DNA from: an uncultured Gammaproteobacteria bacterium | GTDB taxonomy: Bacteria; Patescibacteriota; Patescibacteriia; Magasanikbacterales; GWA2-37-8 | Direction: 5' to 3' | Length of the DNA stretch: 64,000 nt | NCBI GenBank assembly: GCA_964510885.1 | Contig: CAZEDL010000001.1 | Coordinates: forward strand, 129,310 to 193,309 | Part shown: in pieces, positions 22,925 to 61,705 of the stretch | How the letters are laid out: every line of letters begins with the position of its first letter | How positions within the stretch are numbered: position 1 is the stretch's first letter | Program-made: the position numbers and the translations under genes | Notes under the pieces: generated by a model | What the model was told of the DNA's origin: nothing | Database searches by the model: none | The model's input: the letters and a program-made list of their open reading frames with translations, nothing else

Positions 22925-23317
22925 ATGAAAAAAGTACTTGCTTTTGGCACCTTTGACCACTTGCATCCTGGCCATTCATTTTTTTTAGCCGAAGCCAAAA
23001 AACTCGGCGACCACTTAACCGTGGTAGTAGGCCGAGATGTCACCGTTAGCCAAGTAAAACACCACCTGCCAAAACAATCAGAAGTCGAGCGCTTAGCTGC
23101 AGTAGCCAAAGATCCGGCCGTCGATAAAGCTCGGCTCGGGAATACCGGTGAAGATAAATTAAAAGTGATCGAAGAAGAGAAGCCAGATATTATTGCGCTA
23201 GGCTATGATCAAAAAGTATTTGTAGACTTGTTACTTGAGAAATATTCTGGAAAAATTCAAATTTCTTGGATCGAAGCCTTCCAACCGGATATCTACAAAA
23301 GCTCCAAACTAAGGTAA
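22925..23317 (+). CDS. Cytidylyltransferase-like nucleotidyltransferase (RibL/TagD-like)
   Basis: FGTFDHLHPGH (HxGH motif), KPDIIALGYDQ. About 130 aa. Start set to the ATG at 22925. Confidence 0.6.
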   Translation: MKKVLAFGTFDHLHPGHSFFLAEAKKLGDHLTVVVGRDVTVSQVKHHLPKQSEVERLAAVAKDPAVDKARLGNTGEDKLKVIEEEKPDIIALGYDQKVFVDLLLEKYSGKIQISWIEAFQPDIYKSSKLR

Positions 23318-23319
23318 CT

Positions 23320-28984: not shown

Positions 28985-30061
28985 ATGCGTCGTTATAGCT
29001 CAGCCATGCGTCCGAACTTCAAAAGCCAACGCCCTACCAAACGGCGGTCTATTTTTAGCATCTTTAAACGGCGGAAACATGCCCTTGCTGAGCGGCATAC
29101 GGTGCTGCATCAGGAATATTCAGGTGCTTTTATCCCTAGGCGACAGCGAATGATACAAGCTTCAGGCACCAGACTGAACCTTTGGCCGCTAATCCGAAAG
29201 CTCCTTTTGCCCGCACTCCTGCTAGCCTGGATTGGTTTAATGCTTTTTTTACCCTATTTTCGTATTAATAATGTAAGCTACTACGGCCTCAATATAGTAA
29301 AAAAAGATACGATTGATACCTATGTTAGAGGCAATGTTCTAGCATCTCGCTTCAGTTGGTGGCCGGCCAATAACTATTTTTTACTCGGGAAGAGCCGACT
29401 TGAGTCTAATCTCAAAAAACAGTTTTCTTTTGCCACGGTAACAGTTAAAAAAGTATTTCCGAATCGTATAATTGTTGATGTTACCGAGAAAATCTCAAGC
29501 ATCATCTATGATGATGGCCAAAATTATTACCTGCTTGATCAAAGCGGTCAAATTATAAAATTATTGCGGGCAGTGGGGGAGAGTGAACGCAAAACAGTGC
29601 TGATTTCAGCGCCGATAGTAGCGATTAGCAGCACCACCCCTACATTCACCGCTTCAAGTACAGCTGAAAGCCCTTCCAGTACCACCCGTATCGACCATAC
29701 CCCTAATAGCGCCAGTATCCACCAAGAATTTGGCAAATTCCCTGTTCTGTATGATAAACGTGACGAACCTTTAAATGCGGCTTCTAGCTCGGGAATGGTT
29801 CTATTTAACCCCATTGCAGTAAAAGGTATCCTTGATTGGCAAACCCTAGTGGAAGAACGGGGGATAGGGAGGATTAAATATTTTACGAGCCAACAGACCA
29901 CCCCAGGTATAACTACCGTTATAAACGAACCCTGGACTCTACAATTCGATCCTACCGGCGATCTAGAACAACAAGCCAGAAACATAGAGCTAGTCCTACG
30001 CGAGAATCGGCCAACGCAGTATATTGATGTGCGGTTTGGGGATCGGGTGTATTGGAAGTGA
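28985..30061 (+). CDS. ftsQ: Cell division protein FtsQ/DivIB-like (POTRA domain)
   Basis: Basic cytoplasmic N-terminus, TM segment (LLLPALLLAWIGLMLFL), POTRA segment YFRINNVSYYGLNIVKKDTID, and VFPNRIIVDVTEK. Confidence 0.6.
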   Translation: MRRYSSAMRPNFKSQRPTKRRSIFSIFKRRKHALAERHTVLHQEYSGAFIPRRQRMIQASGTRLNLWPLIRKLLLPALLLAWIGLMLFLPYFRINNVSYYGLNIVKKDTIDTYVRGNVLASRFSWWPANNYFLLGKSRLESNLKKQFSFATVTVKKVFPNRIIVDVTEKISSIIYDDGQNYYLLDQSGQIIKLLRAVGESERKTVLISAPIVAISSTTPTFTASSTAESPSSTTRIDHTPNSASIHQEFGKFPVLYDKRDEPLNAASSSGMVLFNPIAVKGILDWQTLVEERGIGRIKYFTSQQTTPGITTVINEPWTLQFDPTGDLEQQARNIELVLRENRPTQYIDVRFGDRVYWK

Positions 30062-40700: not shown

Positions 40701-43334
40701 ATGAATTTAGAGAAATTTACTACCAAATCAGTGGAAGCGCTTCACGCGGCCGGCAGAATCGCTCGGGAAAATGGCCAGGCTCATATTGACCCACCTCATT
40801 TATTTTTAGCCTTTCTATTAGATCCGGAGAGTATCGTAATTTCGATCTTAGCCAAGGCGAATGTAAATTTGCAGAACGCTATTTACCAAATGAAAGTTTT
40901 AATCAGTCACTTGCCGAAACAAGGCGATATTAATTCGTATCCAAGCGGGCAAATAATCCTTGACTCGCCATTGGTAGCGTTATTGGAACAATCAGTCGCT
41001 GAAGCTAGAGACATGAACAGCGAATATGTAAGTGTAGAGCATATCTTATTGGCTTTTTTTGTTGATAAAAATGATGTCAGTAACGCTTTTAGCGTTGAAA
41101 ATGTTACCTTTGGGGTGATACAAAAAATTCTTGTAGAAATGAAGGGCTCTTCAGAATTCACGGACTCATTTTCGGGTGAAAAAAAATATGCCATGCTTGA
41201 AAAATTCGGCAAAAACCTGACGGAACTCGCGCGCAAAGAAAAAATTGATCCGGTGATTGGCCGCGATGACGAAATCCGACGGGTAATGCAGATTCTGAGC
41301 CGGCGGACCAAAAATAACCCGGTTCTGATCGGCGAACCAGGTACCGGTAAAACGGCTGTAGTGGAAGGGTTGGCCCAGCGTATTGTAAATGGTGACGTCC
41401 CAGAATCGCTTAAGAATAAAGACATTTTCGCGCTTGATATTGGTTCGCTGGTAGCCGGCACTAAATTTCGTGGCGAGTTTGAAGATCGGCTAAAAGGTAT
41501 TTTAAAAGAAATTTATGGAGCCGAAGGTAAAATTATCTTGTTTATCGACGAACTTCATACGATTGTGGGAGCCGGATCAACTGAAGGCTCGGTTGACACT
41601 TCCAATATGTTGAAACCAGCACTCGCCCGCGGTGAGCTCCATACCATTGGTGCCACTACCCTCAAAGAATATCAAAAATATATTGAAAAAGATGCGGCTC
41701 TCGAACGCCGTTTTCAACCAGTTATTATTAACGAACCTACCGAAGATGATACGGTCGCGATCTTGCGCGGTATCAAAGAAAAATATGAAGTCCATCATGG
41801 GGTACGCATTACTGATAATGCCCTGGTTAGTGCAGTAAAACTCTCCGAACGCTATATTACCGATCGCTTTTTACCAGACAAAGCCGTTGACCTCATCGAT
41901 GAAGCCGCCTCGGCCCTACGCCTCCAGATGGATTCGATGCCGGAAGAACTGGACAAGATGAAACGTTCGATCGTGAAACTTGAAATTGAGAAACGCGCCT
42001 TGCATAACGAGACCGATACTGAATCAAAAGAACGCTTAGCCAAAGTAGAAAGAGAACTGGCAGACATTCATGAACGTAGTAACGAATTTGAAGCTAAATG
42101 GAAAAATGAAAAAGAAATTATTACGCGCATTCAGGATTTTAAAAAAGAAATCGACCAACTTCGCCAACAATCTGAAATTGAAGAGCGGCAAGGTAATTTA
42201 CAAAAAGTTGCCGAAATTCGCTATGGCGCTATCCCCACTTTGGAAAAATCTATTCAAAAAGATGAAAAAAAACTGGCCGAACTGCAACAAAGCCGGGGCT
42301 TATTAAAAGAAGAAGTGAGCGAAGAGGATGTCGCCGGGGTCGTCGCGCGCTGGACCGGTATTCCCGTTAAAAAAATGCTTCAAAGCGAGATGGGTAAACT
42401 GGCCCACATGGAAGAAGTCTTAAAACAAAAAGTTATCGGCCAAGACGAAGCTATTAGGGCAGTGGCTAATGCTATCCGCCGCTCACGCGCGGGAATTTCG
42501 GAAAAAAATCGCCCCATTGGATCGTTTATCTTTATGGGTCCCACGGGAGTTGGTAAAACTGAACTGGCTAAGACGCTGGCGGAATTTATGTTTGATACCG
42601 AAGAAGCCTTAGTCCGTTTGGATATGAGCGAATACATGGAAAAACATAGCGTATCTAAAATTATCGGCTCACCACCTGGTTATATCGGCTATGAAGAAGG
42701 CGGCCAACTTACCGAAATCGTGCGTCGCCGTCCGTATGCCGTCATTCTCCTCGATGAAATCGAAAAAGCGCATCCCGATGTATTTAATTTACTACTCCAA
42801 GTACTTGATGATGGCCGGGTAACGGATGCCAAAGGACGCCTGGTTAATTTCAAAAATACCGTTATTATCATGACCAGTAATATTGGCAGTCGCACCATCT
42901 TGGAATTCAAAAAACGAGGCAGTTTTGGGTTTGAACAGGACCACAGTCAAAAGAAAAAAGATGAACGAGAGATTAAAGAAAAAGTTATGGCTGCTCTACA
43001 GGATCATTTTAAGCCCGAATTTTTAAACCGGTTAGATGAAATTATTATTTTCCATTCTCTTGGCGAAGCCAATATTGAACGAATTGTCGACTTACAATTG
43101 GCCGCAGTGCAAACACGATTAAATGAGAAAAAAATAATACTCTCTCTGGACGCTTCTGCTAAAAAATATATTGCTCAAACCGGCTTTAACAGCGATTATG
43201 GCGCTCGCCCAATCAAACGCCTGATCCAACAGGAAATTCTTGACAATCTAGCCATAAAAATCATTGACGGTACTATTACAGAAGGGCAAACCGTGAGCGT
43301 CAGCCTCGAAAAAGATACACTAAAAATAGTCTAA
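40701..43334 (+). CDS. clpB: ATP-dependent disaggregase ClpB
   Basis: Clp-N repeats, AAA-1 (GEPGTGKTA), coiled-coil M-domain, AAA-2 (GPTGVGKTE) and the sensor-2 GARPIKR. Confidence 0.9.
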
Positions 43335-43365
43335 GCATTGCTTAGAACCATCTATCTACTTAGCA

Positions 43366-43395
43366 AAAACCTGGCACCCTCTGTCAGGTTTTTTG
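43366..43395 (+). terminator. Intrinsic terminator after clpB
   Basis: AAACCTGGCA-ccctc-TGTCAGGTTTTTT. Confidence 0.65.
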
Positions 43396-43468
43396 CTTTT
43401 ATTATTACTATATATATGCTATGCTTAGAGCAAGTCATCAGAGGAGATGTTGCTCGTAATTTTGTAGT

Positions 43469-45694
43469 ATGTCTTCATTCCAAAAAATTTTTGCCAGCCT
43501 GCTTCTAGCCAGCCTATTTGTTCCGCTGGCCGCTGGCGCAGTATCTAGTGCCGATTTTAATCCTAATTTTATTATTTCTGATGCTGAGCTGCAGGATTAT
43601 AACAGCTGGACCAAAGGCGATATTCAAGATTTTTTAACCAGCAAAGGCAGTTATTTGCGTCAATATCAGGCAGCAGATGTAAACGGAACTCAAAAAACAG
43701 CGGCCGAAATCATATACGACTCCGCTCAGACCCACCAAATCAACCCCAAATACCTGCTCGTCACCCTCCAAAAAGAACAAAGTTTAATTACTGATGACAC
43801 TCCCACTGCCCGCCAGCTTGACTGGGCAACAGGCTACGCCGTCTGCGACAGCTGCTCCAAAGATGACCCAAAAGTTGCCAAGCATAAAGGGTTTGGCAAA
43901 CAGGTCGATGCCGGCGCCGGCATTATGCGTTGGTACTATGATAATAAAGATACGCATCCAGTGGTGTTAAAAAAAGATGTTCCGATTAAAATTGACAATA
44001 AACCCGTAACCCCCGGCAGTTGGGCCACTGCCTTTCTTTACACCTACACCCCGCACGAACATGGCAACCTAAATTTTTGGCGCATCTGGAACACCTGGTT
44101 CGAACAAGTCTATCCCGATGGCTCACTGCTCAAATCAGCCAGCAGCTCCGAAATCTGGCTAATCAAAGACGGTCTGCGCCGCAAATTCGCGAACCAATCC
44201 GCCCTTATCACCCGCGCCGATCCAAAACTCGTAATCACCGTGCCAGATATTGAGTTGCAAAATTACCAGCTTGGGCGAGATATTAGCCTGCCGAACTACT
44301 CTGTGCTCCGGGCCGCAAATTCAGGCATGTTCTATTTGCTTGACTATGACACAGTCCGCCCTTTTGCATCCGAAGCAGTGGTGCGCAAATTTGGCTATAA
44401 CCCGCAAGAAATTATCGACGTCAGCGACTCTGATCTATCTACCTATTCTATTGGTTCTATCATCAATACCAGTAGCACTGCCCCAGCCGGGATTATTTAC
44501 CAAATAACCGATTTAAATGATGCCTACTACCTCCTAAAAGATAATACTATCTACCCGCTCGTGGATCGCAAAGTAGCCAGCGTGGTCTACAAACATCTAG
44601 CCCTTGAAAAACATACCAAACAAGATATTGCCGCCTATCCGGTAGCCGACCTGCCCATTTCCTTCCCCGATGGCACCTTACTCAAATCAGCTGATAGCAA
44701 CACCATTTACGTCTTAGAAAAAGGCAAAAAACGTCGCCTGGCGGATGATGACACCTTCACCGGTCTTGGCTATAAAAAAGAAAATATCGTGACCGTCAAC
44801 CTGTTATCCCTACTCACTATTCCAAGCGGGCAAGCTCTGTTCCTCAACAGCAGCCTCTTATCGTCTAAAAATAAATTTTTGGGCGACAGCGAATCCGCAA
44901 TTCCAGATTTGTTCAGCACCAAGCTCCCCAGCTACCTTGTAGCCGAATACCCCTCCGGGCGTTTGCTAAGTGGAAAAAATATTGATTCACAGCGTTCAAT
45001 CGCCTCTTTCACCAAACTTATCACAGCCTATGAAGCCCTGCATGGCGAATATAAAAGAGATAAAACTGCCAAATATTCCGCCAAAAAATACAAAGGCTAT
45101 GATAATAAAATCGGCTTCAAAGAGAATGAGCAGCTTAAAAATGTAGATCTCTTAAACACCCTTCTGGTAGGCTCAATCAACAGTACCGCCGGCTTATTGG
45201 CTGAGGCAGCAGGACTCACCGAAGAGGGTCTAGTTCAAAAAATGAACGACCGTCTTAGCGAATGGGGAGCCGACAATACCACACTGTCAGATGTTAGTGG
45301 TCTTGATGCTAATAATAAATCCACGCCACGCGATCTGCTAAAAATCTTTACCAAAGTCCTAGCTGACTCGACCCTGAACCCTATCCTCAAAAAAACTACC
45401 TACACCTTCAGTGGTATCGCCAATAAAAAAGTAATCAAACATGAAGTCAAAAATACAAACCAGCTCTACTTTGCCACCGGCAAAAAACCAGCCTATACTA
45501 TCCTGGCGAGTAAAACTGGCTACACTGAAGAGGCAGGCAGTGTGCTAATGATGCTGATTGAAGGGGATAAAGACAAAAAACGCTATATAGTTATCACCAT
45601 GGGCAACCCTGACTATACCCGGCGGTTTGAAGAACCAGCTCGGTTGGCAGATTTCGTAGTAAGTGATAAATTCATCATAACGAACAATAAGTAA
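43469..45694 (+). CDS. Secreted protein with C-terminal D-Ala-D-Ala carboxypeptidase (S11, low-molecular-weight PBP) domain and a ~470-aa N-terminal extension
   Basis: Signal peptide. The C-terminal domain carries SIASFTKLITAYE (SxxK), GSINSTAG (SxN) and KTGYTEEAG (KTG). Confidence 0.7.
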   Translation: MSSFQKIFASLLLASLFVPLAAGAVSSADFNPNFIISDAELQDYNSWTKGDIQDFLTSKGSYLRQYQAADVNGTQKTAAEIIYDSAQTHQINPKYLLVTLQKEQSLITDDTPTARQLDWATGYAVCDSCSKDDPKVAKHKGFGKQVDAGAGIMRWYYDNKDTHPVVLKKDVPIKIDNKPVTPGSWATAFLYTYTPHEHGNLNFWRIWNTWFEQVYPDGSLLKSASSSEIWLIKDGLRRKFANQSALITRADPKLVITVPDIELQNYQLGRDISLPNYSVLRAANSGMFYLLDYDTVRPFASEAVVRKFGYNPQEIIDVSDSDLSTYSIGSIINTSSTAPAGIIYQITDLNDAYYLLKDNTIYPLVDRKVASVVYKHLALEKHTKQDIAAYPVADLPISFPDGTLLKSADSNTIYVLEKGKKRRLADDDTFTGLGYKKENIVTVNLLSLLTIPSGQALFLNSSLLSSKNKFLGDSESAIPDLFSTKLPSYLVAEYPSGRLLSGKNIDSQRSIASFTKLITAYEALHGEYKRDKTAKYSAKKYKGYDNKIGFKENEQLKNVDLLNTLLVGSINSTAGLLAEAAGLTEEGLVQKMNDRLSEWGADNTTLSDVSGLDANNKSTPRDLLKIFTKVLADSTLNPILKKTTYTFSGIANKKVIKHEVKNTNQLYFATGKKPAYTILASKTGYTEEAGSVLMMLIEGDKDKKRYIVITMGNPDYTRRFEEPARLADFVVSDKFIITNNK

Positions 45695-45706
45695 CCCTTT
45701 CACAAC

Positions 45707-45769
45707 TTACGCGTTATAACTTTTCCCTTTGGTAACCAAACGCATTCAGGGGAAAGTTATAACGCGTAA
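45707..45769. repeat. 21-bp near-perfect inverted repeat with 21-nt spacer
   Basis: TTACGCGTTATAACTTTTCCC ... GGGGAAAGTTATAACGCGTAA gives one G-T equivalent position. The spacer contains TTTGG-TAA-CCAAA. No following U-tract. Confidence 0.7.
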
Positions 45770-45798
45770 TTCTACACTTTATTCATTAAGTTAGCGCT

Positions 45799-46590
45799 AT
45801 GTCGCTTGTCTTTGCGGGCATTACCCCTCACCCGCCACTCTTAATCCCAAGCATAGGCAAAGAAGCTGCTAAAAAAGTGGAAAAAACCAAATTAGCCCTC
45901 GAAAAGCTGGAAGAAGATATCTACTTAGCCCATCCTGATGTAATTATTATTTTCTCCCCGCACAGCAACCTGCTTAAAGAAGCCTTTACGCTCAACTTGT
46001 GCCCTAAATACCACAGTGATTTGCGTGAATTTGGCGACCTCAGCACACAGCTTACCTTTCCTGGTGAAATGCAGGCGCTGTCATCGCTGCGCAAAACTGC
46101 CGAGAATGCCGGCATGGCCTGCCGCCTGATTAGCGAGCCAACCATTGATCATGGTATAGCCGTGCCGCTTTTTTTCCTGACTAGACATCTTAAAAACACC
46201 CCTATCGTCCCGATTGGTTTTTGTGATGCCGAATGGAAAACGCACCTTGAATTTGGCTATCTGATCAAAGAACAAATCATGAACAGCAACAAACGCGTAG
46301 CTGTAATTGCCTCGGGTGATTTATCGCATGCACTCACAACCGATGCTCCGGCCGGATTCAACCAACGCGGCTCAGAATTTGACCGAAAAGTCCAAGATTT
46401 ATTTGCCGTCCAAAATACCACCGGATTATTACAACTTGATCCTTCGCTCGTGTCTGATGCCGCTGAGTGCGGGTTCAAAACCTTTTTAATGTTAAGTGGC
46501 GTGCTCCGGGGAGTTAACTATACCTACCAGTCATATTGTTACGAAAGCCCGTTTGGCGTCGGATATCTCACTGCCCACTTTGCCTTCTAG
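45799..46590 (+). CDS. LigB-type class III extradiol dioxygenase / MEMO1-like (AmmeMemoRadiSam system protein B-like)
   Basis: 263 aa. GITPHPPLLIP, FSPHSNL, HGIAVPLFFL, VIASGDLSH. Histidine spacing typical of the LigB/MEMO fold. Confidence 0.6.
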   Translation: MSLVFAGITPHPPLLIPSIGKEAAKKVEKTKLALEKLEEDIYLAHPDVIIIFSPHSNLLKEAFTLNLCPKYHSDLREFGDLSTQLTFPGEMQALSSLRKTAENAGMACRLISEPTIDHGIAVPLFFLTRHLKNTPIVPIGFCDAEWKTHLEFGYLIKEQIMNSNKRVAVIASGDLSHALTTDAPAGFNQRGSEFDRKVQDLFAVQNTTGLLQLDPSLVSDAAECGFKTFLMLSGVLRGVNYTYQSYCYESPFGVGYLTAHFAF

Positions 46591-46629
46591 CGTCCCCTTA
46601 AAGCGCGGGTACTTCATGTTCTTCTGCCT

Positions 46630-48525
46630 ATGTTTGCCACCGTTGTGTTAGCCCGGCGTACTCCTGCTAAACTTTCCTATCTTACCTATCGAGTCCCGCC
46701 TTCACTTGCAGGTTCAATAGCCCTTCGCCAGCTGGTAGCCGCCCCCTTTGGCAAAAGCCAAGCCTACGGGATAGTTTTCGATTTATCACAGCACGCACCC
46801 ATTCTTCCCAAAAATCAACTGATTAAAGATATTGCAGCTATAATAAACCTAACCCCAGTACTATCCGAAGCACAATCGGATTTTATTAAAGACATCAGCG
46901 ATCTGTATCACACTTCGTTTGGCTGGCTGATTAAAAACACCTTATTTCCACTGCAACCGCGAAAAATAAAACAATTTGCCAGCGTAGCCAATTCAGGTGT
47001 GGTTACCGCAGCAAAAACACCTGCCCCAATCCACTTTTTTTATCACCGCACTCTACCCGAAGCCATCCCCTACCTTGAAAAAAATCTCAACGACGGTGCT
47101 CAAAACTTGCTATTAGTGCCCGAAATAAATCAACTCAAAAAAATTAGCGCCAGCCTGCCGACCTTGCTGTTACGTGAAGCTACAATAATAGATAATCAAA
47201 CTAGCGCTAAAATTTTATATGAAACCTGGTTACGGCTCTGGCGCGGTGAGGCCCTGACAGTAATCGGAACGCGCTCTAGCTTGTTTCTGCCGTGGACCAA
47301 TCTTAGAAACGTCGTCGTACTTGATGAATCAAATCCGAGTTACAAAAGTTTTGAAGCTGCCCCGCGGCTTGAAACTCGTGATGCTGCACGATTTTTAGGG
47401 TGGCACCATGGTGCCACCGTCCATCTACTTAGCCAAGTTCCATCGCTCGAAACCTACCAATTTGCCAGGCAAGGGTTATACCCGAATAATTTATTTACTG
47501 AAAAAGTGCCCGCCGCTACTCCACCGCCCCAGATCGAAATTATCAATCTTAAAGATGAATATTACCGCCGCAATAATACTGCTCTTTCAGAAGCTGCACG
47601 CAAAGCTCTCAGTCAAGTCAAACGTGGCGAGATTGGCCTCTGCTTAGTAAACAAGCGTGGCACCGCTTCATTTATCACCTGTCAGGATTGTGGTTTTGTA
47701 TGGCAGTGCAAAACCTGCCGCCAAAATCTTACCTGGCACGAACAATCTAAAAGCCTGCGCTGTCATTTTTGCAAAACGAACGAACCGCTCCCTGGCAGCT
47801 GCCCCACCTGCCAGGGCACACTCATTAAACTCGGCGGCTCTGGCAGCGAAAAAATTGAACAACTACTCCGCCAAATAACCCGTGAAAATAACGGCACCGT
47901 TGTTCGCATTGATTCTGATTCAAAACATATCGTGCCTACAGTAGACGCGCCGCTCTACTTGGCAGCCACCGCCGCCGCCTGGACCAGCCTCCCCTGGGAA
48001 AAAATTACCACAGTAGTCTTTGTCGACCCCGACACCATGCTACAGATTCCTGAATACCGAATCAGTGAACGCCTCTGGTATTATATTCAAATGGCCCGGC
48101 TTAATATTCCAGCCACCGGGAGATGCTTCGTACAAACCAGACACCCCGAGCAACCTTTTTTCCAGCACCTGAACAATCGAGCCCAATGGTACGCAGAGGA
48201 ACTAAAATCGCGCCGCCGCTTCAAATACCCGCCATACTGGAGCTTATTAAAACTAAGCCTCAGCCGACCGCTTCAAGGCACTATTGCTGGCGAAACAGAG
48301 CGCCTTTACCGACAACTGCGAACATTGACTAGCGGCTCTGAAAACGTTATAGTACTGCCGCCAATTGCCTCTGTAACTAGCGGAAACAGGCCTTCAGCAA
48401 GCCAGATTATAATAATCAAAATCAAACCTGAAGTGTATAAAAAAACCATCAAAAAGCTACTTGCCAGTGTGCCTAATTTTTGGAAAACCGATCTAAACCC
48501 GCACGATCTCCTGAACAGTCTATAA
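46630..48525 (+). CDS. priA: Primosomal protein N' (PriA)-like, with intact Cys-rich zinc module but degenerate Walker A
   Basis: N-terminal 3-prime-DNA-binding domain (LTYRVPPSLAGSIALRQLVAAPFGKSQAYGIV). Motif II-like VVLDESNPSYK. Cys cluster CQDCGFVWQCKTCRQNLTWH...CHFCK...CPTCQG. The usual GxGKT P-loop is replaced by LEKNLNDGAQNLLLVPEI. Confidence 0.7.
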   Translation: MFATVVLARRTPAKLSYLTYRVPPSLAGSIALRQLVAAPFGKSQAYGIVFDLSQHAPILPKNQLIKDIAAIINLTPVLSEAQSDFIKDISDLYHTSFGWLIKNTLFPLQPRKIKQFASVANSGVVTAAKTPAPIHFFYHRTLPEAIPYLEKNLNDGAQNLLLVPEINQLKKISASLPTLLLREATIIDNQTSAKILYETWLRLWRGEALTVIGTRSSLFLPWTNLRNVVVLDESNPSYKSFEAAPRLETRDAARFLGWHHGATVHLLSQVPSLETYQFARQGLYPNNLFTEKVPAATPPPQIEIINLKDEYYRRNNTALSEAARKALSQVKRGEIGLCLVNKRGTASFITCQDCGFVWQCKTCRQNLTWHEQSKSLRCHFCKTNEPLPGSCPTCQGTLIKLGGSGSEKIEQLLRQITRENNGTVVRIDSDSKHIVPTVDAPLYLAATAAAWTSLPWEKITTVVFVDPDTMLQIPEYRISERLWYYIQMARLNIPATGRCFVQTRHPEQPFFQHLNNRAQWYAEELKSRRRFKYPPYWSLLKLSLSRPLQGTIAGETERLYRQLRTLTSGSENVIVLPPIASVTSGNRPSASQIIIIKIKPEVYKKTIKKLLASVPNFWKTDLNPHDLLNSL

Positions 48526-48535
48526 TAAAATTTTT

Positions 48536-49030
48536 ATGGTATACGATATTGTCTACGAACCACACCCTATTTTACATAACCGGGCTAAAGACTTGACCGC
48601 GTCCGAAATTAATACGCCCGAAATGCAAAAATTTATTAAAGACATGGTAGAGACCATGTATGCCAAAGACGGTGTTGGCCTGGCCGCTGTCCAGATTGGA
48701 ACCTCGATCCAGCTGTGCGTGATTGCCAAAGCCTACAACGAATTGAATCCGAACCAGGACTTGTGTCTGATTAACCCAACCTGGACAAAAGCCTCACGCC
48801 ATACCAATTGGGATGAAGAAGGCTGCTTATCAGTCCCTGGTATTTATGGAAAAATAAAACGCTACTCTAATTTGAATGTCACCGCGCTTGATCACAAAGG
48901 CCGACCGCTCACCTTCCGGGCTGAAGACTTTTTTGCCCGCATCATCCAACATGAATGCGACCATTTAAACGGCACGCTATTTATTGAAAAAGCCAAAGAT
49001 TTACACCGGATCAAAAAACCTACACCCTAA
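48536..49030 (+). CDS. def: Peptide deformylase
   Basis: GVGLAAVQIG, EGCLSVPG, HECDHLNG. Confidence 0.9.
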   Translation: MVYDIVYEPHPILHNRAKDLTASEINTPEMQKFIKDMVETMYAKDGVGLAAVQIGTSIQLCVIAKAYNELNPNQDLCLINPTWTKASRHTNWDEEGCLSVPGIYGKIKRYSNLNVTALDHKGRPLTFRAEDFFARIIQHECDHLNGTLFIEKAKDLHRIKKPTP

Positions 49031-49036
49031 GCAGAC

Positions 49037-49417
49037 ATGTTTAAGCGCATCCATCACGTCGCGATAATTTGCCAAGACTACGATCGGTCAAAACATTTTT
49101 ATTGCACTATTTTGGGTGCAAAAATACTTCAAGAAAATTACCGTGCTGACCGCAGATCCTACAAGCTTGATTTAATGTTAGCTGACTGCCAAATCGAACT
49201 ATTCTCTTTTCCAAACCCTCCTAAACGCCTCAACAATCCTGAAGCTGCTGGACTTAGACATTTAGCATTTACCGTTGATTCAGTCACTACTGTCAAACAT
49301 ATCCTTGAAGCGTCAAATATTTCCGTTGAACCAATCAGAACCGACCCATATACGCGCAAAAAATTTACTTTTTTCAAAGATCCGGATGGCTTACCTCTCG
49401 AAATATATGAAAGTTAA
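49037..49417 (+). CDS. VOC/glyoxalase-family protein
   Basis: MFKRIHHVAIICQDYDRSKHFY...LGA plus a C-terminal beta-alpha-beta-beta-beta unit (PDGLPLEIYE). Confidence 0.7.
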   Translation: MFKRIHHVAIICQDYDRSKHFYCTILGAKILQENYRADRRSYKLDLMLADCQIELFSFPNPPKRLNNPEAAGLRHLAFTVDSVTTVKHILEASNISVEPIRTDPYTRKKFTFFKDPDGLPLEIYES

Positions 49418-50348
49418 TGACACAACTATATCTATCACTTTTTTCGGCACCGACCAATTTGCTGCCGACGTTCTTGCCCCGCTTATCGACAGCGGGCTAT
49501 TTACTTTCAAAGCAATCGTGACTCAGCCTGACCGGCCAATCGGTCGCAGCCGCGAAATCGCTCCGGCGCCAGTTAAAGAACTCGGCCGAACCCATAATAT
49601 CCCTGTAATACAGCCGCCTACCTTGAAATCTCCAGAGACAATTGCCAGTATTCCACCGGCAGATTTATTTTTAGTGTTTCATTACGGACTTATTATCCCG
49701 CCAGAATTATTAAGCATTCCTAAGTACGGCACCCTGAATCTTCACCCGTCAAAACTCCCAAGCTTCCGCGGCGCATCACCAATTCGGAGCGCGCTTATCA
49801 ATGGCGACACTGAAACGGCAGTAACAGTGATGCTAATGGATGACAAAATGGACCACGGCCCGATACTAGCCACCGAGATAATTGCGATTGATCCTGATGA
49901 TACCAATGATTCTCTGACTACCAAAATAACTCCGCGCGGCAGCGCACTACTATTAAAAACAATTCCGCGCTGGGTAAATGGCGACATCAGGCCGGAGCCT
50001 CAGAATCACGCCGCCGCTACTTTTTGTACTCTAGTATCCCGTGATGATGGCCAAATACAGTGGCACACTTCGGCAGCCACGATCTACAACCTATTCCGCG
50101 GGCTCAGTCCCTGGCCTGGAATCTGGACAGAACTCCAGGGTAAACGTCTCAAACTATTAATTATCTCTCCGGCTGTAACCACACAATCAGCCGCGCCAGG
50201 TACTATAATAGCTGAAAGTAACCGGCTATATATTGCAACTGGCCAAGGAGTTATTGAAGTAATTAGTCTGCAATTGGAAGGTAAAAAAGCGATGACGGCC
50301 AACCAATTCTTAAATGGGTATAAACACCTTATCGGAACTACCCTGTGA
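49407..50348 (+). CDS. fmt: Methionyl-tRNA formyltransferase
   Basis: ITFFGTDQFA, the SLLP-type motif HPSKLPSFRGASPIRSALINGD, and the C-terminal Fmt domain. Start set to the ATG at 49407, which overlaps the upstream stop by 11 nt. The track's 49275 start overlaps the VOC gene. Confidence 0.85.
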   Translation: MKVNDTTISITFFGTDQFAADVLAPLIDSGLFTFKAIVTQPDRPIGRSREIAPAPVKELGRTHNIPVIQPPTLKSPETIASIPPADLFLVFHYGLIIPPELLSIPKYGTLNLHPSKLPSFRGASPIRSALINGDTETAVTVMLMDDKMDHGPILATEIIAIDPDDTNDSLTTKITPRGSALLLKTIPRWVNGDIRPEPQNHAAATFCTLVSRDDGQIQWHTSAATIYNLFRGLSPWPGIWTELQGKRLKLLIISPAVTTQSAAPGTIIAESNRLYIATGQGVIEVISLQLEGKKAMTANQFLNGYKHLIGTTL

Positions 50349-51805
50349 AACATACCACAAGGCAGATCATCTGGTTTACTGGCGTCTACACCCTACTACG
50401 GGTTATTTCTTTTATTTTTCCTCCGGCTACTCCACTGCACGAAGCTTCGCTTTTTAACAGCATCTTCAGCGGCCTTATTTTAACTATCGTCGCTTACTGG
50501 TTAATTAAAAAAAATCCCGTGGGCTGGTATATTGTTGCTGGCGAACTATTTCTCGGCGGAACTGGAAACTTTTTTAGTTTTTTTGGCCTATCGCTCAGGA
50601 CTGCGCTGCTCCTCGTGTCGCTAGCTATATTTTTTGCTTGGCAATCGCCACCGCGAACCTGGAAAGAACTCATTTTTACTAATCAAACCGCCAGTGTAAT
50701 TATTATAATGGTTGCAACTGTGGCCAGCTTATCGGCAATTCGAGGCTATACCTTCGATCACCCATTGGCACTAATACGCGCCGACAGCATTCCCTATCTA
50801 TTCTTTTTATACTACTTTCCCCTGCGGAGTCTGATTAAAGACAGTGAGTATAAAGCTGAATTTTTATCAGTGTCACAATCGCTTATTATCGCTGCGGTTA
50901 TCGGCAGCGCTCTGTTCATGGGCACAACCTTCGCTCTGTATTCCAGTCACTTCTTAGTGCTGCAAGATACCTACTACCATTGGTTTCGCGATGTTGCGAA
51001 CGGAAAAATCACCGCCCTCCCATTTAATTTTTTCCGCATTGTACTCAATGAGCAACTACTGCTTATCCCTCTTATTCTAGTCGCCACTGATAGCTTAATT
51101 AAGCGACAGGCATTATTTTCGAGCATAACAAAGTGGCGACATTATATTCTTATTGGCGCCTTACTCGGTATCTTAGCTATCAACATCACGCGCATTTATC
51201 TTATCGCCTGGGTTATCGGTTTAGCTTTTCTCATTTCCAAACGGTTTTTTAAGCGCTGGCTGACTATTTCCGCGTTGAGCGGTGTGGCGTTTCTAACCAT
51301 CTTTACTACTATCCATACGATATCTAGCCGAGGCACGAGCCTTGGGCTTGAGCTCTTTGGGCTACGCCTGCAGAGCATTGTTAGCCCAGCGATTGAAGAT
51401 AGTTCGCTCAGCCGCACCCTACTACTGCCCAAAATCATAGCTAAAATAAAATCACATCCGATACTGGGCAATGGGTTAGCTGATACGGTCACAGTCTATA
51501 GCCCGGGAGTAAAACGCGATATCACCACCCCCCAATTTGATTGGGGCTGGCTTGAGATCTGGGCTGAGCTCGGAATCATTGGCCTGCTCGCCTGGGCGCT
51601 ATCGTGTGGGCTCCTGCTGCTACGTATGTTGCAAAGCCAGGCCCCGAGCTGGCAGGCAGCCAGTTTAGTTGCCCTTGGCGCCTGCACCATTACTGCTCCC
51701 GTTATATTTCATGTACTTGGCATTGTCTGGTTAGTCATACTGCTCAGCACCCTTAATCTTTCTTCACCAAACCCGGCTACTGCCAAAAATTCTTTTGACA
51801 GCTGA
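50345..51805 (+). CDS. O-antigen ligase (WaaL)/Wzy_C-family polytopic membrane protein
   Basis: At least 10 TM helices and a large periplasmic loop. The motif SHPILGNGLADTVTVY is typical of the Wzy_C family. Confidence 0.6.
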   Translation: MKHTTRQIIWFTGVYTLLRVISFIFPPATPLHEASLFNSIFSGLILTIVAYWLIKKNPVGWYIVAGELFLGGTGNFFSFFGLSLRTALLLVSLAIFFAWQSPPRTWKELIFTNQTASVIIIMVATVASLSAIRGYTFDHPLALIRADSIPYLFFLYYFPLRSLIKDSEYKAEFLSVSQSLIIAAVIGSALFMGTTFALYSSHFLVLQDTYYHWFRDVANGKITALPFNFFRIVLNEQLLLIPLILVATDSLIKRQALFSSITKWRHYILIGALLGILAINITRIYLIAWVIGLAFLISKRFFKRWLTISALSGVAFLTIFTTIHTISSRGTSLGLELFGLRLQSIVSPAIEDSSLSRTLLLPKIIAKIKSHPILGNGLADTVTVYSPGVKRDITTPQFDWGWLEIWAELGIIGLLAWALSCGLLLLRMLQSQAPSWQAASLVALGACTITAPVIFHVLGIVWLVILLSTLNLSSPNPATAKNSFDS

Positions 51806-59440: not shown

Positions 59441-59627
59441 ATAAAACAGAGATAAGTAAACTTTGCTAACTATAGCATATTTTTATGAAATGGCAAATCT
59501 GATCTGAATGATAATTACAAGGAAATATAATTAAAAAATAAAATCTCGTAAATAACCATTTACAATTTTCTTGACTTGACTACTAAAAACTTGCTATGTA
59601 CTTAACTAGACAAGTATGGAGGAGTCC

Positions 59628-60278
59628 ATGGAAAAATCAGAAATTGTTGTTTTTTTCGTAACCGACGCCAGGCAGTGGCACACCGAGCGGCTGCGCAGAA
59701 TCGGAGCCAATATCGGAGTGTACTGCATAGAAAACCATGTTCGGCGCCCAGTCATTTGCACTGCGGCGAATGGCAAACACTCAGTATGGACTTATTTCTG
59801 GGTGATCTGGGGTCTAAAAGGAGGCTTTCGCGGCTTGAGCAGATTCTTGCCATATTTCCGCCGAGAAGCCAACTCAGAAAACAAAGACGGGCGCGAGGAG
59901 ACGAAGCTGCTCTTCGACCATATCTGGGAAGGTCACTTTGCTGGGGAAACCCGCAGGCAAGGTGATCCCAGTCACGCGCACAGTGGATGGGTGACGAGCG
60001 TGCTCGTGGTTGGCCACCATGAGGCATTGAATCGGGTGCTCATCAGGCTCATACGCGAGTATATGGCGCCTGTAAAAGCGGGGCTCGTACCAATCTTGGC
60101 CGAAGCAGGGCTCGACGGTCGCCACCGTCAAAAAAAGCCCCCATTCACTCTCGGCAAAGCCGAGTTAGTAATCATGCGATTTGAACTTGACCCCAGTAAT
60201 AATTATTCGACCACGCTCATATCGATTGAGCATGGTATCGAGCTGAGCGCCACCGACACCCCTCCCACAATCGAATAG
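59628..60278 (+). CDS. Hypothetical protein (orphan); start set to second ATG preceded by GGAGGAG
   Basis: Strong SD GGAGGAG 3 nt upstream of the ATG at 59628. Locally higher GC with many overlapping shadow ORFs. No recognisable family. Confidence 0.4.
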   Translation: MEKSEIVVFFVTDARQWHTERLRRIGANIGVYCIENHVRRPVICTAANGKHSVWTYFWVIWGLKGGFRGLSRFLPYFRREANSENKDGREETKLLFDHIWEGHFAGETRRQGDPSHAHSGWVTSVLVVGHHEALNRVLIRLIREYMAPVKAGLVPILAEAGLDGRHRQKKPPFTLGKAELVIMRFELDPSNNYSTTLISIEHGIELSATDTPPTIE

Positions 60279-60753: not shown

Positions 60754-61614
60754 TTATGTGCCACACCCAGGAGTAGCGGATCCTCCGCTACCACTTGAAT
60801 CCGCTGCTGTGCCAAAACCAGGCACAAAAGCTACCGTACTGAGTGTTTGACCGCACTCAGCTGGTGGATTATTGAAAGAAGCACAGACGGCTTGTTTAAT
60901 CGCTTCGGGGCTGCGGGAACTGTCGATAATAGCACCGTTAATCACGAGGGTCGGAGAACCTTGAACACCGTAGCCTTCGCTCGCAGTTTGATCAATGGGG
61001 AAAATCGGGAATTGACCGGAGAGCCACTTGGACTGATCATTATACTGTGCCATCACGCCGAATTGTTTATCTGTTTTATCGGTACAGACTTTTAGTTTGC
61101 CAGTGTTCACTTTGGCGCTCGCAAGGCAGCCATCGGAATTGCCACCGGCGGCAAAACAGGAAAGATAGGCCTGGAAGACTTTTGGTTGTTCTGACTCAAT
61201 GCAGTGCTGGCGGGTATTTTCTTCTACTTCCTTTAGCCCGTGCATGGCATAATGCACAAATTTCAGATCAAAATCGGCTTTTTTGCCGAGTGTCTGCCAG
61301 ACCGGCAAGAAGCCTTTTTCCATCTGGAGTCCATAAGGGCAATAAGACATGACAAATAGTTCTACTTTTGGGCGATCACTCTTTGGAATATTGGCCGGAG
61401 GTGGGGGCAAGGCCTTAGCATTGGCAACATCATCAGCTGTTGCCTTATAGGCATAATTTGATGAGGGTCCGGCCGAACCAAATTGTAGAGTGCCACGAGC
61501 CAACAGACTCAACATGATAATGAAACCGAGAGTACAGAGTACCAAAAGTCCAGACACACAGCCGATGATCAGAGCGGATCTAGGATCTAAATTATCGAAG
61601 AGATTTTTTTGCAT
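60754..61614 (-). CDS. Membrane-anchored thioredoxin-fold (DsbA-like) thiol-disulfide oxidoreductase
   Basis: N-terminal TM segment. CxxC active site VMSYCPYGLQ. Thioredoxin-fold C-terminal part. Start set to the ATG at 61614. Confidence 0.65.
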   Translation of the reverse strand: MQKNLFDNLDPRSALIIGCVSGLLVLCTLGFIIMLSLLARGTLQFGSAGPSSNYAYKATADDVANAKALPPPPANIPKSDRPKVELFVMSYCPYGLQMEKGFLPVWQTLGKKADFDLKFVHYAMHGLKEVEENTRQHCIESEQPKVFQAYLSCFAAGGNSDGCLASAKVNTGKLKVCTDKTDKQFGVMAQYNDQSKWLSGQFPIFPIDQTASEGYGVQGSPTLVINGAIIDSSRSPEAIKQAVCASFNNPPAECGQTLSTVAFVPGFGTAADSSGSGGSATPGCGT

Positions 61615-61705
61615 AAGCGTACAGTGAAAAAATAAATGCATCTTAGGCTTAGTACACATCATTGTACCGTAGACTTGTGAATAGTCAAGCAATACAAGCT
61701 GTTTT

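What the first reader, a model, noticed from the sequence alone, without database searches (positions are those of the whole stretch)
46630..48525. PriA homologue retaining the Zn-binding Cys cluster but lacking a Walker A P-loop
The N-terminal DNA-binding domain, a helicase motif-II-like VLDESNPSYK and the CxxC...CxxC...C..C..CxxC module are all present. Where PriA has GxGKT(E/S), this protein has LEKNLNDGAQNLLLVPEI. The helicase ATPase may be inactive, with the protein serving as a structure-specific loader. Alternatively, the P-loop is highly divergent.
Basis: partly seen in the sequence, partly recalled or inferred. Interest (0 to 1): 0.5.

Follow-up and report, generated by a model that had tools for sequence, protein, structure and literature searches.

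The report
PriA homologue with deleted ATPase site
This gene encodes a bacterial replication-restart protein (PriA) that keeps its fork-binding and zinc-finger parts but has lost its ATP-binding motor site; a whole lineage of tiny uncultured (CPR/Patescibacteria) bacteria shares this state, so the protein most likely works as a passive fork-recognising adaptor, as already shown for Deinococcus PriA.

Summary
The ORF at 46630-48525 (+), 631 aa, is real and is a PriA orthologue. It scores above the TIGR00595 cut-off, models at pLDDT 90-95, matches E. coli PriA at TM 0.8, and sits in priA-def-fmt synteny. The P-loop position is 'FFYHRTLPEA' (aa 136-145), modelled as a 3-residue turn. The Q motif, the catalytic Glu and His of motif II, motif III, the KG of motif V and both motif VI arginines (3-aa deletion) are also gone. 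The 3'-end-binding domain, motifs Ia, Ib and IV, the aromatic-rich loop, all eight zinc cysteines and the C-terminal domain are kept. The state is lineage-wide. It occurs in 25 Magasanikbacteria/Parcubacteria genome loci and in at least 148 50%-identity clusters that form one clade, with P-loop-bearing CPR PriAs as sister. dN/dS is 0.07-0.16, so the gene is not decaying. Best reading: an ATP-independent fork-recognition and helicase-recruitment scaffold, a pseudohelicase. That kind is known from Deinococcus-Thermus PriA and mimicked by E. coli priA300. This case is an apparently independent, more extreme and seemingly undescribed variant. Interest is moderate.

The parts
46630..48525 (+). priA orthologue, 631 aa plus stop; P-loop-less 'pseudohelicase' PriA
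   Evidence: The ORF is. TIGR00595 scores 242 bits against a cut-off of 230.35. PDB PriA chains match at E 3e-45. AF2 gives pLDDT 90.2 and 94.7. Foldseek gives TM 0.79-0.80 to E. coli PriA 8fak_H.
46630..46953 (+). 3'-DNA-binding domain (3'BD), aa 1-108
   Evidence: PF17764 matches at E 1.8e-11. Residues conserved in canonical PriA are kept in the clade: Y18, P21, V32, P35, F36, G44, V46, K61 in E. coli numbering.
46954..47028 (+). Short linker, aa 109-133, replacing the winged-helix domain and the Q-motif segment
Evidence: Alignments A1 and big.aln show that the roughly 90-aa WH domain and the 'LNxxQ' stretch are absent. Some P-loop-bearing short PriAs also lack WH.
47029..47067 (+). Remnant of motif I: IHFFYHRTLPEAI (aa 134-146), a strand, a 3-residue turn and a helix with no P-loop
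   Evidence: It aligns to E. coli 'LLAGVTGSGKTEVYL'. DSSP on both AF2 models gives E134-138, turn 139-141 and H142-152/153. In the clade G224 is Y in 104/155 and G229 is E in 84/155.
47107..47127 (+).
   Evidence: V252, P253 and E254 are kept in the clade.
47260..47286 (+). Motif Ib VIGTRSSLF (aa 211-219), retained
   Evidence: G302, T303, R304, A306 and F308 are kept in at least 125/155.
47314..47385 (+). Degenerate motif II plus aromatic-rich loop: VVLDESNPSYKSFEAAPRLETRDA (aa 229-252)
   Evidence: D320 is L, E321 is D and H323 is S in the window protein. E322, K328, P333 and R334 are kept across the clade. The ARL role at the fork junction is from PMC5175346 and PMC10175261.
47425..47451 (+). 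Degenerate motif III LLSQVPSLE (aa 266-274), SAT replaced by SQV
47641..47664 (+). Motif IV CLVNKRGT (aa 338-345), retained
   Evidence: N426, R427 (K in the window protein) and G429 are kept.
47671..47823 (+). Cys-rich region (CRR), aa 348-398, four CxxC pairs for two predicted Zn sites
   Evidence: C351, C354, C360, C363, C378, C381, C391 and C394 are invariant against 14 other PriAs. All eight are kept in at least 70% of the clade, and in A4 four are invariant and four are at least 90% conserved. PF18319 matches at E 1.7e-4, below its cut-off.
47959..47997 (+). Degenerate motif V LAATAAAWTSLPW (aa 444-456); T kept, KG lost
   Evidence: T539 is kept in 153/155. K544 and G545 are not conserved.
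48082..48120 (+). Remnant of motif VI YIQMARLNIPATG (aa 485-497); both arginine fingers gone, 3-aa deletion
   Evidence: It aligns to E. coli 'YTQVAGRAGRAGKQG'. A three-residue deletion within the GRAGRAG segment is gapped in about 83-94% of the clade, at E. coli 588-590 in one alignment and 586-587 in the other.
48211..48522 (+). C-terminal domain, aa 528-631
   Evidence: R625, P631, P632, P675 and D726 are kept. The domain is modelled at high pLDDT. PF18074 is detected in 37/76 relatives.
48536..49030 (+). def (peptide deformylase), starting 10 nt after the priA stop; a synteny partner
   Evidence: PF01327 matches at E 5.7e-50. The priA-def-fmt order is conserved in 23 related loci.
49416..50348 (+). 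fmt (methionyl-tRNA formyltransferase); a synteny partner
   Evidence: PF00551 and PF02911 match.

Best explanation
The gene is the genome's priA orthologue. It has become a pseudohelicase: a folded, selected, two-lobed SF2-shaped protein that can no longer bind or hydrolyse ATP.

Shown here:
- The nucleotide pocket has been dismantled. The P-loop is reduced to a 3-residue turn, the Q motif segment is deleted, the catalytic Glu of motif II and motif III are lost, and the arginine-finger loop is deleted.
- The nucleic-acid-contacting and architectural elements are retained under purifying selection. These are the 3'BD with its conserved residues, motifs Ia, Ib and IV, the Thr of motif V, the aromatic-rich loop that wedges at the fork junction in E. 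coli PriA, the 2-Zn Cys-rich region and the C-terminal domain.

Inferred mechanism:
- The protein recognises an abandoned fork or D-loop. It captures the nascent leading-strand 3' end in the 3'BD and clamps lagging-strand-template ssDNA between lobe 2, the CRR and the CTD.
- It then uses the CRR and neighbouring surfaces as a docking platform to bring in the replicative helicase DnaB, directly or through a loader. PriB and DnaT are not expected in this lineage.
- It cannot unwind a duplex lagging arm. It should therefore act only on forks that already expose lagging-strand ssDNA, or depend on another helicase for fork remodelling.

The loss happened once, inside the CPR/Patescibacteria radiation, in the ancestor of a large clade that includes Magasanikbacteria.
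For: - Identity as PriA: TIGR00595 scores 242 bits, above its cut-off. PDB PriA chains match at E 3e-45. Two AF2 models (pLDDT 90.2 and 94.7) match E. coli PriA 8fak_H at TM 0.79-0.80. priA-def-fmt synteny is conserved in 23 related loci.
- ATP site gone: motif-by-motif alignment against E. coli and canonical PriAs. No DEAD or Helicase_C Pfam hit even at E<=1. The strand, 3-residue turn and helix at aa 134-152 appear in both models.
- Constraint-shift analysis, 114 P-loop-bearing versus 149 P-loop-less sequences: 3'BD, Ia, Ib, IV, ARL, eight Cys and CTD residues are kept. Q203, G224-T231, E321, SAT, K544/G545, R584 and R587 are lost.
- Purifying selection: dN/dS is 0.07-0.16 for the whole gene and 0.07-0.21 for dead lobe 1 in six pairs.
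- Lineage-wide: 25 genome loci. 145 of 147 further 50%-identity representatives lack the P-loop. A single pure clade of 148 has P-loop-bearing CPR sisters, P0216 from Candidatus Torokbacteria and P0263.
- Precedents from papers: E. coli priA300 (K230R) lacks ATPase yet supports PriA-PriB restart (PMC5778457). D. radiodurans PriA has no ATPase or helicase activity but binds forks and DnaB (PMC4504706). Fork recognition and the ssDNA pore use 3'BD, HD1, HD2, CRR and CTD (PMC10175261).
Against: - No biochemistry was possible. ATP binding at an unconventional site cannot be formally excluded; a second weak nucleotide site has been proposed for E. coli PriA but never located (PMC5778457).
- No partner gene (dnaB, dciA, dnaC/I, dnaD, ssb) lies in the 64-kb window, so the recruitment step is pure inference.
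- PriA is the fastest-evolving gene of its conserved block: 52% identity against 63-86% for neighbours in L002, and about 35% against 38-77% elsewhere. This shows relaxed constraint and would also fit partial loss or change of function.
- I could not check whether the same genome also carries a canonical PriA elsewhere.
- The monophyly rests on an unbootstrapped NJ tree of fast-evolving sequences. The indels at motifs I and VI, seen in most of the clade, support it.
Confidence: 0.75

Rival explanations
1. The protein is still an ATPase/helicase that uses a highly divergent or relocated nucleotide-binding site.
For: The two-lobe RecA-like fold is intact. An acidic pair (D232-E233) survives at motif II, and E322 is kept in 142/155 of the clade. 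A second, unmapped nucleotide site has been proposed for E. coli PriA (PMC5778457).
Against: There is no Gly-rich loop. The strand-to-helix connection is 3 residues. The only GK[ST] lies in the 3'BD and aligns to a non-P-loop segment. The Q-motif segment and both motif VI arginines are physically deleted. The catalytic E321 position is variable in the clade (D58/Y20/E14/Q13/F11). The replacement residues at the P-loop site are not conserved as any alternative phosphate-binding motif.
Confidence: 0.03
2. It is a decaying relic, a pseudogene in progress with no remaining function.
For: It is the fastest-evolving gene in the conserved ClpB-to-fmt block. Several catalytic motifs are lost.
Against: Full-length intact ORFs occur in all 22 related genome loci not cut by a contig end and in at least 148 clusters at 50% identity. 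dN/dS is 0.07-0.16 in every domain. Eight Zn cysteines are conserved along with many DNA-binding residues. The clade-only MSA gives a very confident fold, pLDDT 94.7.
Confidence: 0.03
3. The protein has been repurposed. It still binds branched DNA but no longer reloads the replisome; it might act as a fork-capping or protection factor, or as a recombination-intermediate binder.
For: Constraint is relaxed relative to neighbours. A few residues are conserved only in the clade, for example R344 to L in 81% and F548 to W in 80%. No restart partners lie nearby. E. coli PriA also blocks Pol III access to the 3' end independently of ATP (PMC5778457).
Against: All surfaces used by E. coli PriA for fork recognition and partner docking are retained (3'BD, ARL, CRR, CTD). 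The chromosomal position is orthologous, priA-def-fmt. The Deinococcus pseudohelicase still binds DnaB (PMC4504706).
Confidence: 0.12
4. A canonical, ATP-hydrolysing PriA paralogue exists elsewhere in the genome, and this copy is an accessory subunit or regulator.
For: This cannot be excluded. Only 64 kb of a contig of at least 400 kb is visible, and only about 6 kb of flank is held for the related loci.
Against: This copy occupies the ancestral priA-def-fmt slot. The clade branches as the vertical continuation of CPR PriAs. CPR genomes are small and rarely keep paralogues of replication genes (general knowledge). No second PriA-like ORF was seen among the roughly 50 window ORFs of at least 126 aa that I scanned.
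Confidence: 0.05

Closest known systems
Deinococcus radiodurans / Deinococcus-Thermus PriA pseudohelicase (Lopper et al. 2015, PMC4504706)
   Same: It is a PriA orthologue with degenerate motifs I and II across a whole lineage. It is expected to have no ATPase or helicase activity but to keep fork binding. It is proposed to keep a replisome-reloading role through direct contact with DnaB.
   Different: In Deinococcus-Thermus the P-loop is still present as a loop with the catalytic Lys changed to Arg (PMC4504706). Here the loop is shortened to a 3-residue turn. The Q-motif segment, motif III, the KG of motif V and the arginine-finger loop of motif VI are also lost. The lineage is different (CPR/Patescibacteria), with P-loop-bearing CPR sisters, which implies an independent origin. 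No Deinococcus sequence was available to place in the tree. Nothing here has been tested biochemically.
E. coli PriA K230R/K230A (priA300), an engineered ATPase-dead PriA
   Same: ATPase, helicase and translocase activities are abolished, yet primosome assembly and PriA-PriB restart are retained (PMC5778457). It is the functional model for what a P-loop-less PriA can still do.
   Different: It is a single point mutation in an otherwise intact helicase that works with PriB/DnaT/DnaC. The window protein is a natural, long-evolved form without the WH domain, in a lineage where PriB and DnaT are not expected.
Canonical PriA (E. coli / K. pneumoniae; PDB 4NL4, 6DGD, 8FAK)
   Same: The domain order is the same (3'BD, lobe 1, lobe 2 with inserted CRR, CTD). 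TM-score is 0.79-0.80 to 8fak_H. The protein scores above the TIGR00595 cut-off.
   Different: It has no winged-helix domain and no functional ATP site. Sequence identity is 22-24%.
Short P-loop-bearing CPR PriAs (P0216 from Candidatus Torokbacteria, and P0263)
   Same: They are the closest sister sequences in the NJ tree. They have a similar length (655-665 aa) and also lack the WH domain.
   Different: They retain TGSGKT / TSSGKT, DEEH, S/T-A-T and the motif VI arginines.

Membership tests
PriA / primosomal protein N' (TIGR00595) | Whole-protein score above the curated equivalog cut-off | tested here: met
   242.0 bits against a cut-off of 230.35, only just above. The subfamily models (PRK05580.x) score far below their cut-offs.
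PriA / primosomal protein N' (TIGR00595) | N-terminal 3'-DNA-binding domain | tested here: met
   PF17764 at aa 17-103, E 1.8e-11. It is detected in 76/76 relatives. Conserved residues are kept.
PriA / primosomal protein N' (TIGR00595) | Two RecA-like lobes with PriA-specific topology, and a C-terminal domain | tested here: met
   AF2 gives pLDDT 90.2 and 94.7. Foldseek top hits are all PriA chains (E 1e-31 to 1e-46, TM up to 0.80). The next family, Mfd/DEAD, scores E about 1e-9 with TM about 0.35.
PriA / primosomal protein N' (TIGR00595) | Cys-rich region with four CxxC pairs (two Zn) inserted in lobe 2 | tested here: met
   C351/354, C360/363, C378/381 and C391/394 all align to the CRR cysteines. 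PF18319 alone is sub-threshold, 21.9 bits against 26. Zn binding itself is not testable here.
PriA / primosomal protein N' (TIGR00595) | Walker A (motif I) GxGKT | tested here: not met
   'FFYHRTLPEA' stands in its place, with a 4-aa deletion in alignment A1, and is modelled as a 3-residue turn. The state is shared by 148-149 related representatives.
PriA / primosomal protein N' (TIGR00595) | Walker B / motif II DExH | tested here: not met
   The window protein has L-D-E-S where E. coli has D320-E321-E322-H323. The catalytic E321 position is variable in the clade.
PriA / primosomal protein N' (TIGR00595) | Motif VI arginine fingers (QxxGRxGR) | tested here: not met
   'QMARLNI--PATG' with a 3-aa deletion and no Arg at 584 or 587.
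PriA / primosomal protein N' (TIGR00595) | Winged-helix domain between 3'BD and lobe 1 | tested here: not met
   It is replaced by a 25-aa linker. It is also absent from several P-loop-bearing short PriAs, so it is not universally defining.
PriA / primosomal protein N' (TIGR00595) | DNA-dependent ATPase, 3'-5' helicase activity and replication-restart function | not testable with these tools
   This needs purified protein or genetics.
SF2 helicase catalytic core (Pfam DEAD PF00270 / Helicase_C PF00271 / ResIII PF04851) | Detectable match to the catalytic-core profiles | tested here: not met
   No hit at E<=1 for the window protein. 112 of the 120 nearest database homologues carry all three domains. 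Only 13 of 76 scanned sequences hit DEAD or Helicase_C, five of which are P-loop-bearing controls.
PriA pseudohelicase (Deinococcus-Thermus type, PMC4504706) | PriA architecture with non-consensus motifs I and II across a lineage | tested here: met
PriA pseudohelicase (Deinococcus-Thermus type, PMC4504706) | P-loop retained in length with GKT changed to GRT | tested here: not met
   The loop is deleted here. The state is different and probably of independent origin.
PriA pseudohelicase (Deinococcus-Thermus type, PMC4504706) | No ATPase or unwinding activity, but ssDNA/fork binding and DnaB interaction | not testable with these tools
   These are biochemical properties, inferred only from motif retention and loss.

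The most novel reading that the evidence does not exclude
A large CPR/Patescibacteria clade has converted PriA into an ATP-free clamp fixed in the 'CRR-up', ssDNA-encircling, partner-docking conformation. Both AF2 models, including one built only from P-loop-less sequences, resemble the fork-bound E. coli state 8FAK (TM 0.80) more than the apo states (TM 0.61-0.72). The protein would load DnaB directly, without PriB/DnaT and without any fork remodelling. That would be a minimal, one-protein replication-restart pathway, revealing which PriA functions are truly indispensable.
Probability: 0.25. Interest if true: 0.6.

Novelty: new variant of a known kind. Interest (0 to 1): 0.45.

Why it matters
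PriA is the central replication-restart factor of bacteria. What its helicase activity is for has long been debated, because E. coli tolerates ATPase-dead PriA. [quoted passage not shown]

This work shows a second, apparently independent lineage of at least 148 clusters at 50% identity. In it the whole ATP site has been excised while fork-binding and zinc elements stay under selection. That is a natural separation-of-function experiment. It marks which PriA surfaces suffice for the ATP-independent role. It predicts that these small-genome bacteria restart only forks with an exposed lagging-strand template. It also offers a compact WH-less, ATP-free PriA for structural work on how PriA hands over to DnaB without PriB and DnaT.

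On the practical side, these genes are annotated 'primosomal protein N'' like any active PriA, so helicase activity should not be assumed for them.

Tried and rejected
- A P-loop elsewhere in the protein. The only GK[ST] is PFGKS in the 3'BD, aligned to a non-P-loop segment. Rejected.
- A frameshift or truncation artefact. The ORF is continuous. The upstream gene ends 39 nt before the ATG. The same architecture occurs in 25 genomes. Rejected.
- A pseudogene. dN/dS is 0.07-0.16. Rejected.
- Exact-sequence look-up of the protein's contig to read more of the genome. It is not on record.
- The AFDB50 fold library, to get UniProt organisms. It was not available.
- Cluster look-ups for taxonomy. The only organism names seen are Magasanikbacteria and Patescibacteria group for clade members, and Torokbacteria for the P-loop-bearing sister P0216.
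- Restart partners in the window. None were found among the roughly 50 ORFs scanned.
- Literature searches for a prior description in CPR/Patescibacteria/Parcubacteria or Actinobacteria. None were found in the held library.
- An untested lead from memory. UniProt attaches a caution, 'no detectable helicase domains', to some actinobacterial PriA entries. I could not obtain such a sequence to test it. If true, P-loop erosion in PriA is more recurrent than the literature says.
- A Deinococcus PriA sequence could not be fetched. Independence from that lineage therefore rests on the paper's description of its motifs and on the CPR sister groups.
- SSB-tail pocket residues were not evaluated, because no residue list was available in the papers I read.
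- The promoter and terminator scan was uninformative, apart from a strong terminator-like hairpin after clpB at 43365-43393.
Full report
**1. The observation**

An ATG-initiated ORF of 631 codons occupies 46630-48525 on the + strand. It lies 39 nt after a LigB/Memo-like gene and 10 nt before def.
- Pfam finds the PriA 3'-DNA-binding domain at aa 17-103 (E 1.8e-11) and a sub-threshold PriA Cys-rich zinc ribbon. It finds no DEAD, Helicase_C or ResIII match even at E<=1.
- NCBIfam TIGR00595 (priA equivalog) scores 242 bits, just above its 230.35 cut-off.
- The solved K. pneumoniae and E. coli PriA chains match at E about 3e-45 over aa 147-540.
- No [AG]xxxxGK[ST] exists. The sole GK[ST] is PFGKS (aa 41-43) in the 3'BD, aligned to E. 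coli PFGKQ.

**2. Correction of the register**

The HMMER alignment to 4NL4 and MAFFT alignments with E. coli PriA (fetched as L001) agree on the register.
- 'LEKNLNDGAQNLLLVPEI' pairs with E. coli 'LENVLAQGKQALVMVPEI'. That is the helix following the P-loop plus motif Ia, which is conserved.
- The P-loop position is upstream. 'FFYHRTLPEA' (aa 136-145) pairs with 'LLAGVTGSGKTEVYL', with a four-residue deletion in alignment A1.

**3. The whole ATP site is gone, not only the P-loop**

Motif by motif:
- The Q-motif segment is deleted, together with the winged-helix domain. A 25-aa linker replaces them.
- Motif II is L-D-E-S in place of D320-E321-E322-H323.
- Motif III SAT is S-Q-V.
- Motif V keeps its Thr but loses Lys-Gly.
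- Motif VI QxxGRxGR is QMARLNI with a three-residue deletion, so both arginine fingers are absent.

I ran a constraint-shift comparison of 114 P-loop-bearing and 149 P-loop-less sequences.
- Positions conserved in canonical PriA and lost in the clade are Q203, G224-T231, E321, S356-T358, K544/G545, Q580, G583, R584, G586 and R587.
- Positions kept in both groups are:
  - 3'BD residues Y18, P21, V32, P35, F36, G44, V46 and K61;
  - motif Ia V252-P253-E254;
  - motif Ib G302, R304, A306 and F308;
  - E322;
  - aromatic-rich-loop residues K328, P333 and R334;
  - motif IV N426-R427, G429;
  - all eight cysteines plus H464;
  - G538-T539;
  - D560, E572, Q597 and T598;
  - CTD residues R625, P631, P632 and D726.

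In SF2 helicases generally (established knowledge), motifs Q, I, II and VI bind and hydrolyse ATP and motif III couples hydrolysis to unwinding. Motifs Ia, Ib, IV and part of V contact nucleic acid. In E. coli PriA the aromatic-rich loop sits at the fork junction (PMC5175346, PMC10175261). The pattern is therefore selective loss of the motor with retention of DNA binding.

**4. Structure**

- AlphaFold2 with a mixed alignment (60 sequences, mostly canonical PriA) gave pLDDT 90.2 and pTM 0.89.
- With an alignment of 131 P-loop-less sequences only, it gave pLDDT 94.7 and pTM 0.93.
- Both models place strand 134-138, a three-residue turn (H139-R140-T141) and helix 142-152/153. A phosphate-binding loop needs about eight residues between that strand and helix, so none can form.
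- Foldseek against the PDB returns only PriA chains at the top. The best is E. coli PriA in the fork/PriB-bound state, 8fak_H (TMq 0.79 and 0.80). Apo, ADP-, SSB-peptide- or dsDNA-bound forms score 0.61-0.72. The next family (Mfd, DEAD-box) has TM about 0.3-0.37.
- The preference for the 'CRR-rotated' state is a hint only.

**5. Distribution and evolution**

- The word-indexed search found only seven other proteins without helicase Pfam domains among the 120 best hits.
- A back-translated pattern scan of one genome per GTDB species found 25 loci. They are titled Candidatus Magasanikbacteria, Parcubacteria group, Patescibacteria group and Paceibacterota, plus many third-party MAGs labelled 'uncultured Gammaproteobacteria'.
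- 23 of these loci carry the same priA-def-fmt order, and the ones long enough upstream share the whole ClpB / S11 carboxypeptidase / LigB-like / priA / def / fmt block. Every locus that covers a given motif shows the degenerate state there. The scan pattern itself selected for the degenerate motif II, so this does not measure frequency.
- An exhaustive HMMER search with the clade profile against 1.84 billion representatives returned 150 hits of at least 450 bits, and the list is truncated there. 145 of the 147 new ones lack the P-loop and GRxGR.
- In an NJ tree of 263 sequences, 148 P-loop-less representatives form one pure clade. Its sister is P0216 (Candidatus Torokbacteria, EVTGSGKT, DEEH, GRTGR) plus P0263 (GVTSSGKT). 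Next come short canonical PriAs P0120 and P0094.
- At least one basal member, P0239, still has a Q motif and DEEH but no P-loop or motif VI arginines. This suggests that ATP binding was lost first and the other motifs decayed afterwards. The tree has no bootstrap support and long-branch effects are possible. The indels at motifs I and VI, seen in most of the clade, argue for common descent.

**6. Selection**

- Nei-Gojobori dN/dS for six pairs of orthologues is 0.07-0.16 over the whole gene and 0.07-0.21 in the dead lobe 1. The protein, including its ex-ATPase domain, is maintained.
- PriA is also the fastest-evolving gene of its block: 52% identity against 63-86% for neighbours in L002, and about 35% against 38-77% in most other loci. 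This fits release from catalytic constraints.

**7. Mechanism**

Shown: PriA orthology, an intact fold, a dismantled nucleotide pocket, retained DNA-contact and zinc elements, and purifying selection.

Inferred:
- The protein recognises abandoned forks or D-loops through the 3'BD, which holds the leading-strand 3' end, and through the aromatic-rich loop at the junction.
- It encloses lagging-strand ssDNA between lobe 2, the CRR and the CTD. This is the pore described for E. coli in PMC10175261.
- It recruits the replicative helicase through its CRR and adjacent surfaces.

Support from papers:
- E. coli priA300 (K230R) lacks ATPase, helicase and translocase activity yet supports PriA-PriB restart (PMC5778457).
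- D. radiodurans PriA has no ATPase or helicase activity but binds ssDNA (Kd about 215 nM) and forks (about 109 nM), and interacts with DnaB (PMC4504706).
- In the recent switch model, PriA must unwind a duplex lagging arm before the CRR can rotate and partners can dock (PMC13594977).

A P-loop-less PriA should therefore be restricted to forks that already expose lagging-strand ssDNA, or rely on another helicase. No dnaB, dciA, dnaD or ssb gene is in the window, so the partner is unknown.

**8. Comparison with what is known**

- The protein is a PriA family member by architecture, fold, synteny and the TIGR00595 score. It fails the catalytic defining features (Walker A, DExH, arginine fingers) and the generic SF2 Pfam profiles.
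- The kind, a PriA pseudohelicase, is known from Deinococcus-Thermus. There the P-loop persists with Lys changed to Arg (PMC4504706). Here the loop and the arginine-finger loop are deleted, and the lineage is CPR with P-loop-bearing CPR sisters. I therefore regard it as an independent and more extreme variant.
- I found no description of this state for CPR/Patescibacteria in the held literature. The field's review states that helicase activity is conserved 'except in Deinococcus'.
- I recall, but could not test, a UniProt caution that some actinobacterial PriAs lack detectable helicase domains. If so, erosion of PriA's motor is recurrent, which lowers the surprise.

**9. Verdict**

- Novelty: a new variant of a known kind.
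- Interest: moderate, 0.45. It is a clean natural separation-of-function case in a central replication-restart factor, widespread in an understudied radiation, but conceptually anticipated by Deinococcus PriA and priA300.

Noticed in passing
window 49037-49417 (+): A glyoxalase/VOC-family gene (PF00903, E 8e-21) sits between def and fmt. tblastn found no counterpart in any of the 25 related loci, where def and fmt usually lie within about 130 nt of each other. It looks like an insertion specific to this genome.
   Followed up: partly
window 40701-50348 and loci L002-L024: The block ClpB / S11 D-Ala-D-Ala carboxypeptidase / LigB-Memo-like / priA / def / fmt / 486-aa membrane protein is conserved, wholly or as far as each contig reaches, in 23 related loci (L002-L024). 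PriA is by far its fastest-evolving member: 52% against 63-86% identity in L002, and about 35% against 38-77% elsewhere.
   Followed up: partly
loci L002, L003, L005, L006, L008, L009, L011, L014, L015, L018, L021, L022, L024: Third-party MAG records titled 'uncultured Gammaproteobacteria bacterium' carry the same gene order and the same P-loop-less PriA as MAGs named Magasanikbacteria, Parcubacteria or Patescibacteria. The record titles look like placeholder or wrong taxonomy.
   Followed up: no
proteins P0239, P0238, P0264, P0262 (basal clade members); P0216, P0263 (sister): There are graded intermediates. P0239 keeps a Q motif (LNYGQ) and DEEH but has no P-loop or motif VI arginines. The sisters P0216 and P0263 are fully canonical. 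This suggests stepwise decay after loss of ATP binding.
   Followed up: partly
AF2 models m581c5db7e676 and md3cbe3475aae of window 46630-48522: Both models resemble the fork-bound, CRR-rotated E. coli PriA structure 8fak_H (TM 0.79-0.80) more than the apo or ADP forms (TM 0.61-0.72). No control prediction on a canonical PriA was possible.
   Followed up: partly
window 1119-1694 (+): A 191-aa protein matches the Translin family (PF01997, E 1.3e-17). As far as I recall, this family is known mainly from eukaryotes and archaea, which would make it unusual in a bacterial genome.
   Followed up: no
window 23266-24372 (+): One 368-aa ORF joins a Ham1-type ITPase domain (aa 27-210) and a NUDIX hydrolase domain (aa 235-348). 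This would be a fusion of two nucleotide-pool sanitising enzymes.
   Followed up: no
window 27075-27719 (-): A 214-aa protein has a cupredoxin / COX2-periplasmic-like domain (E 4e-12 and 3e-8). I would not expect this in a presumably fermentative CPR genome.
   Followed up: no
window 49275-50348 (+): The mechanical ORF for fmt starts at a TTG at 49275 and overlaps the glyoxalase gene by about 140 nt. Translating from 49416 (the reading frame of an in-frame ATG at 49419, MKVNDTT...) gives complete Formyl_trans_N and Formyl_trans_C domains, so the real start is probably that ATG.
   Followed up: partly
window 8044-9342 (+); 50345-51805 (+); 28985-30061 (+); 59616-60278 (+); 60754-61692 (-): There is a DUF2130 protein and several sizeable ORFs with no Pfam match. 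One is the 486-aa multi-pass membrane protein that is syntenic downstream of fmt in most related loci.
   Followed up: no
window 43365-43393 (+): A strong terminator-like hairpin (12-bp stem followed by a T-run) lies right after clpB. No comparable site lies between the LigB-like gene, priA and def, which fits co-transcription of priA with def.
   Followed up: no
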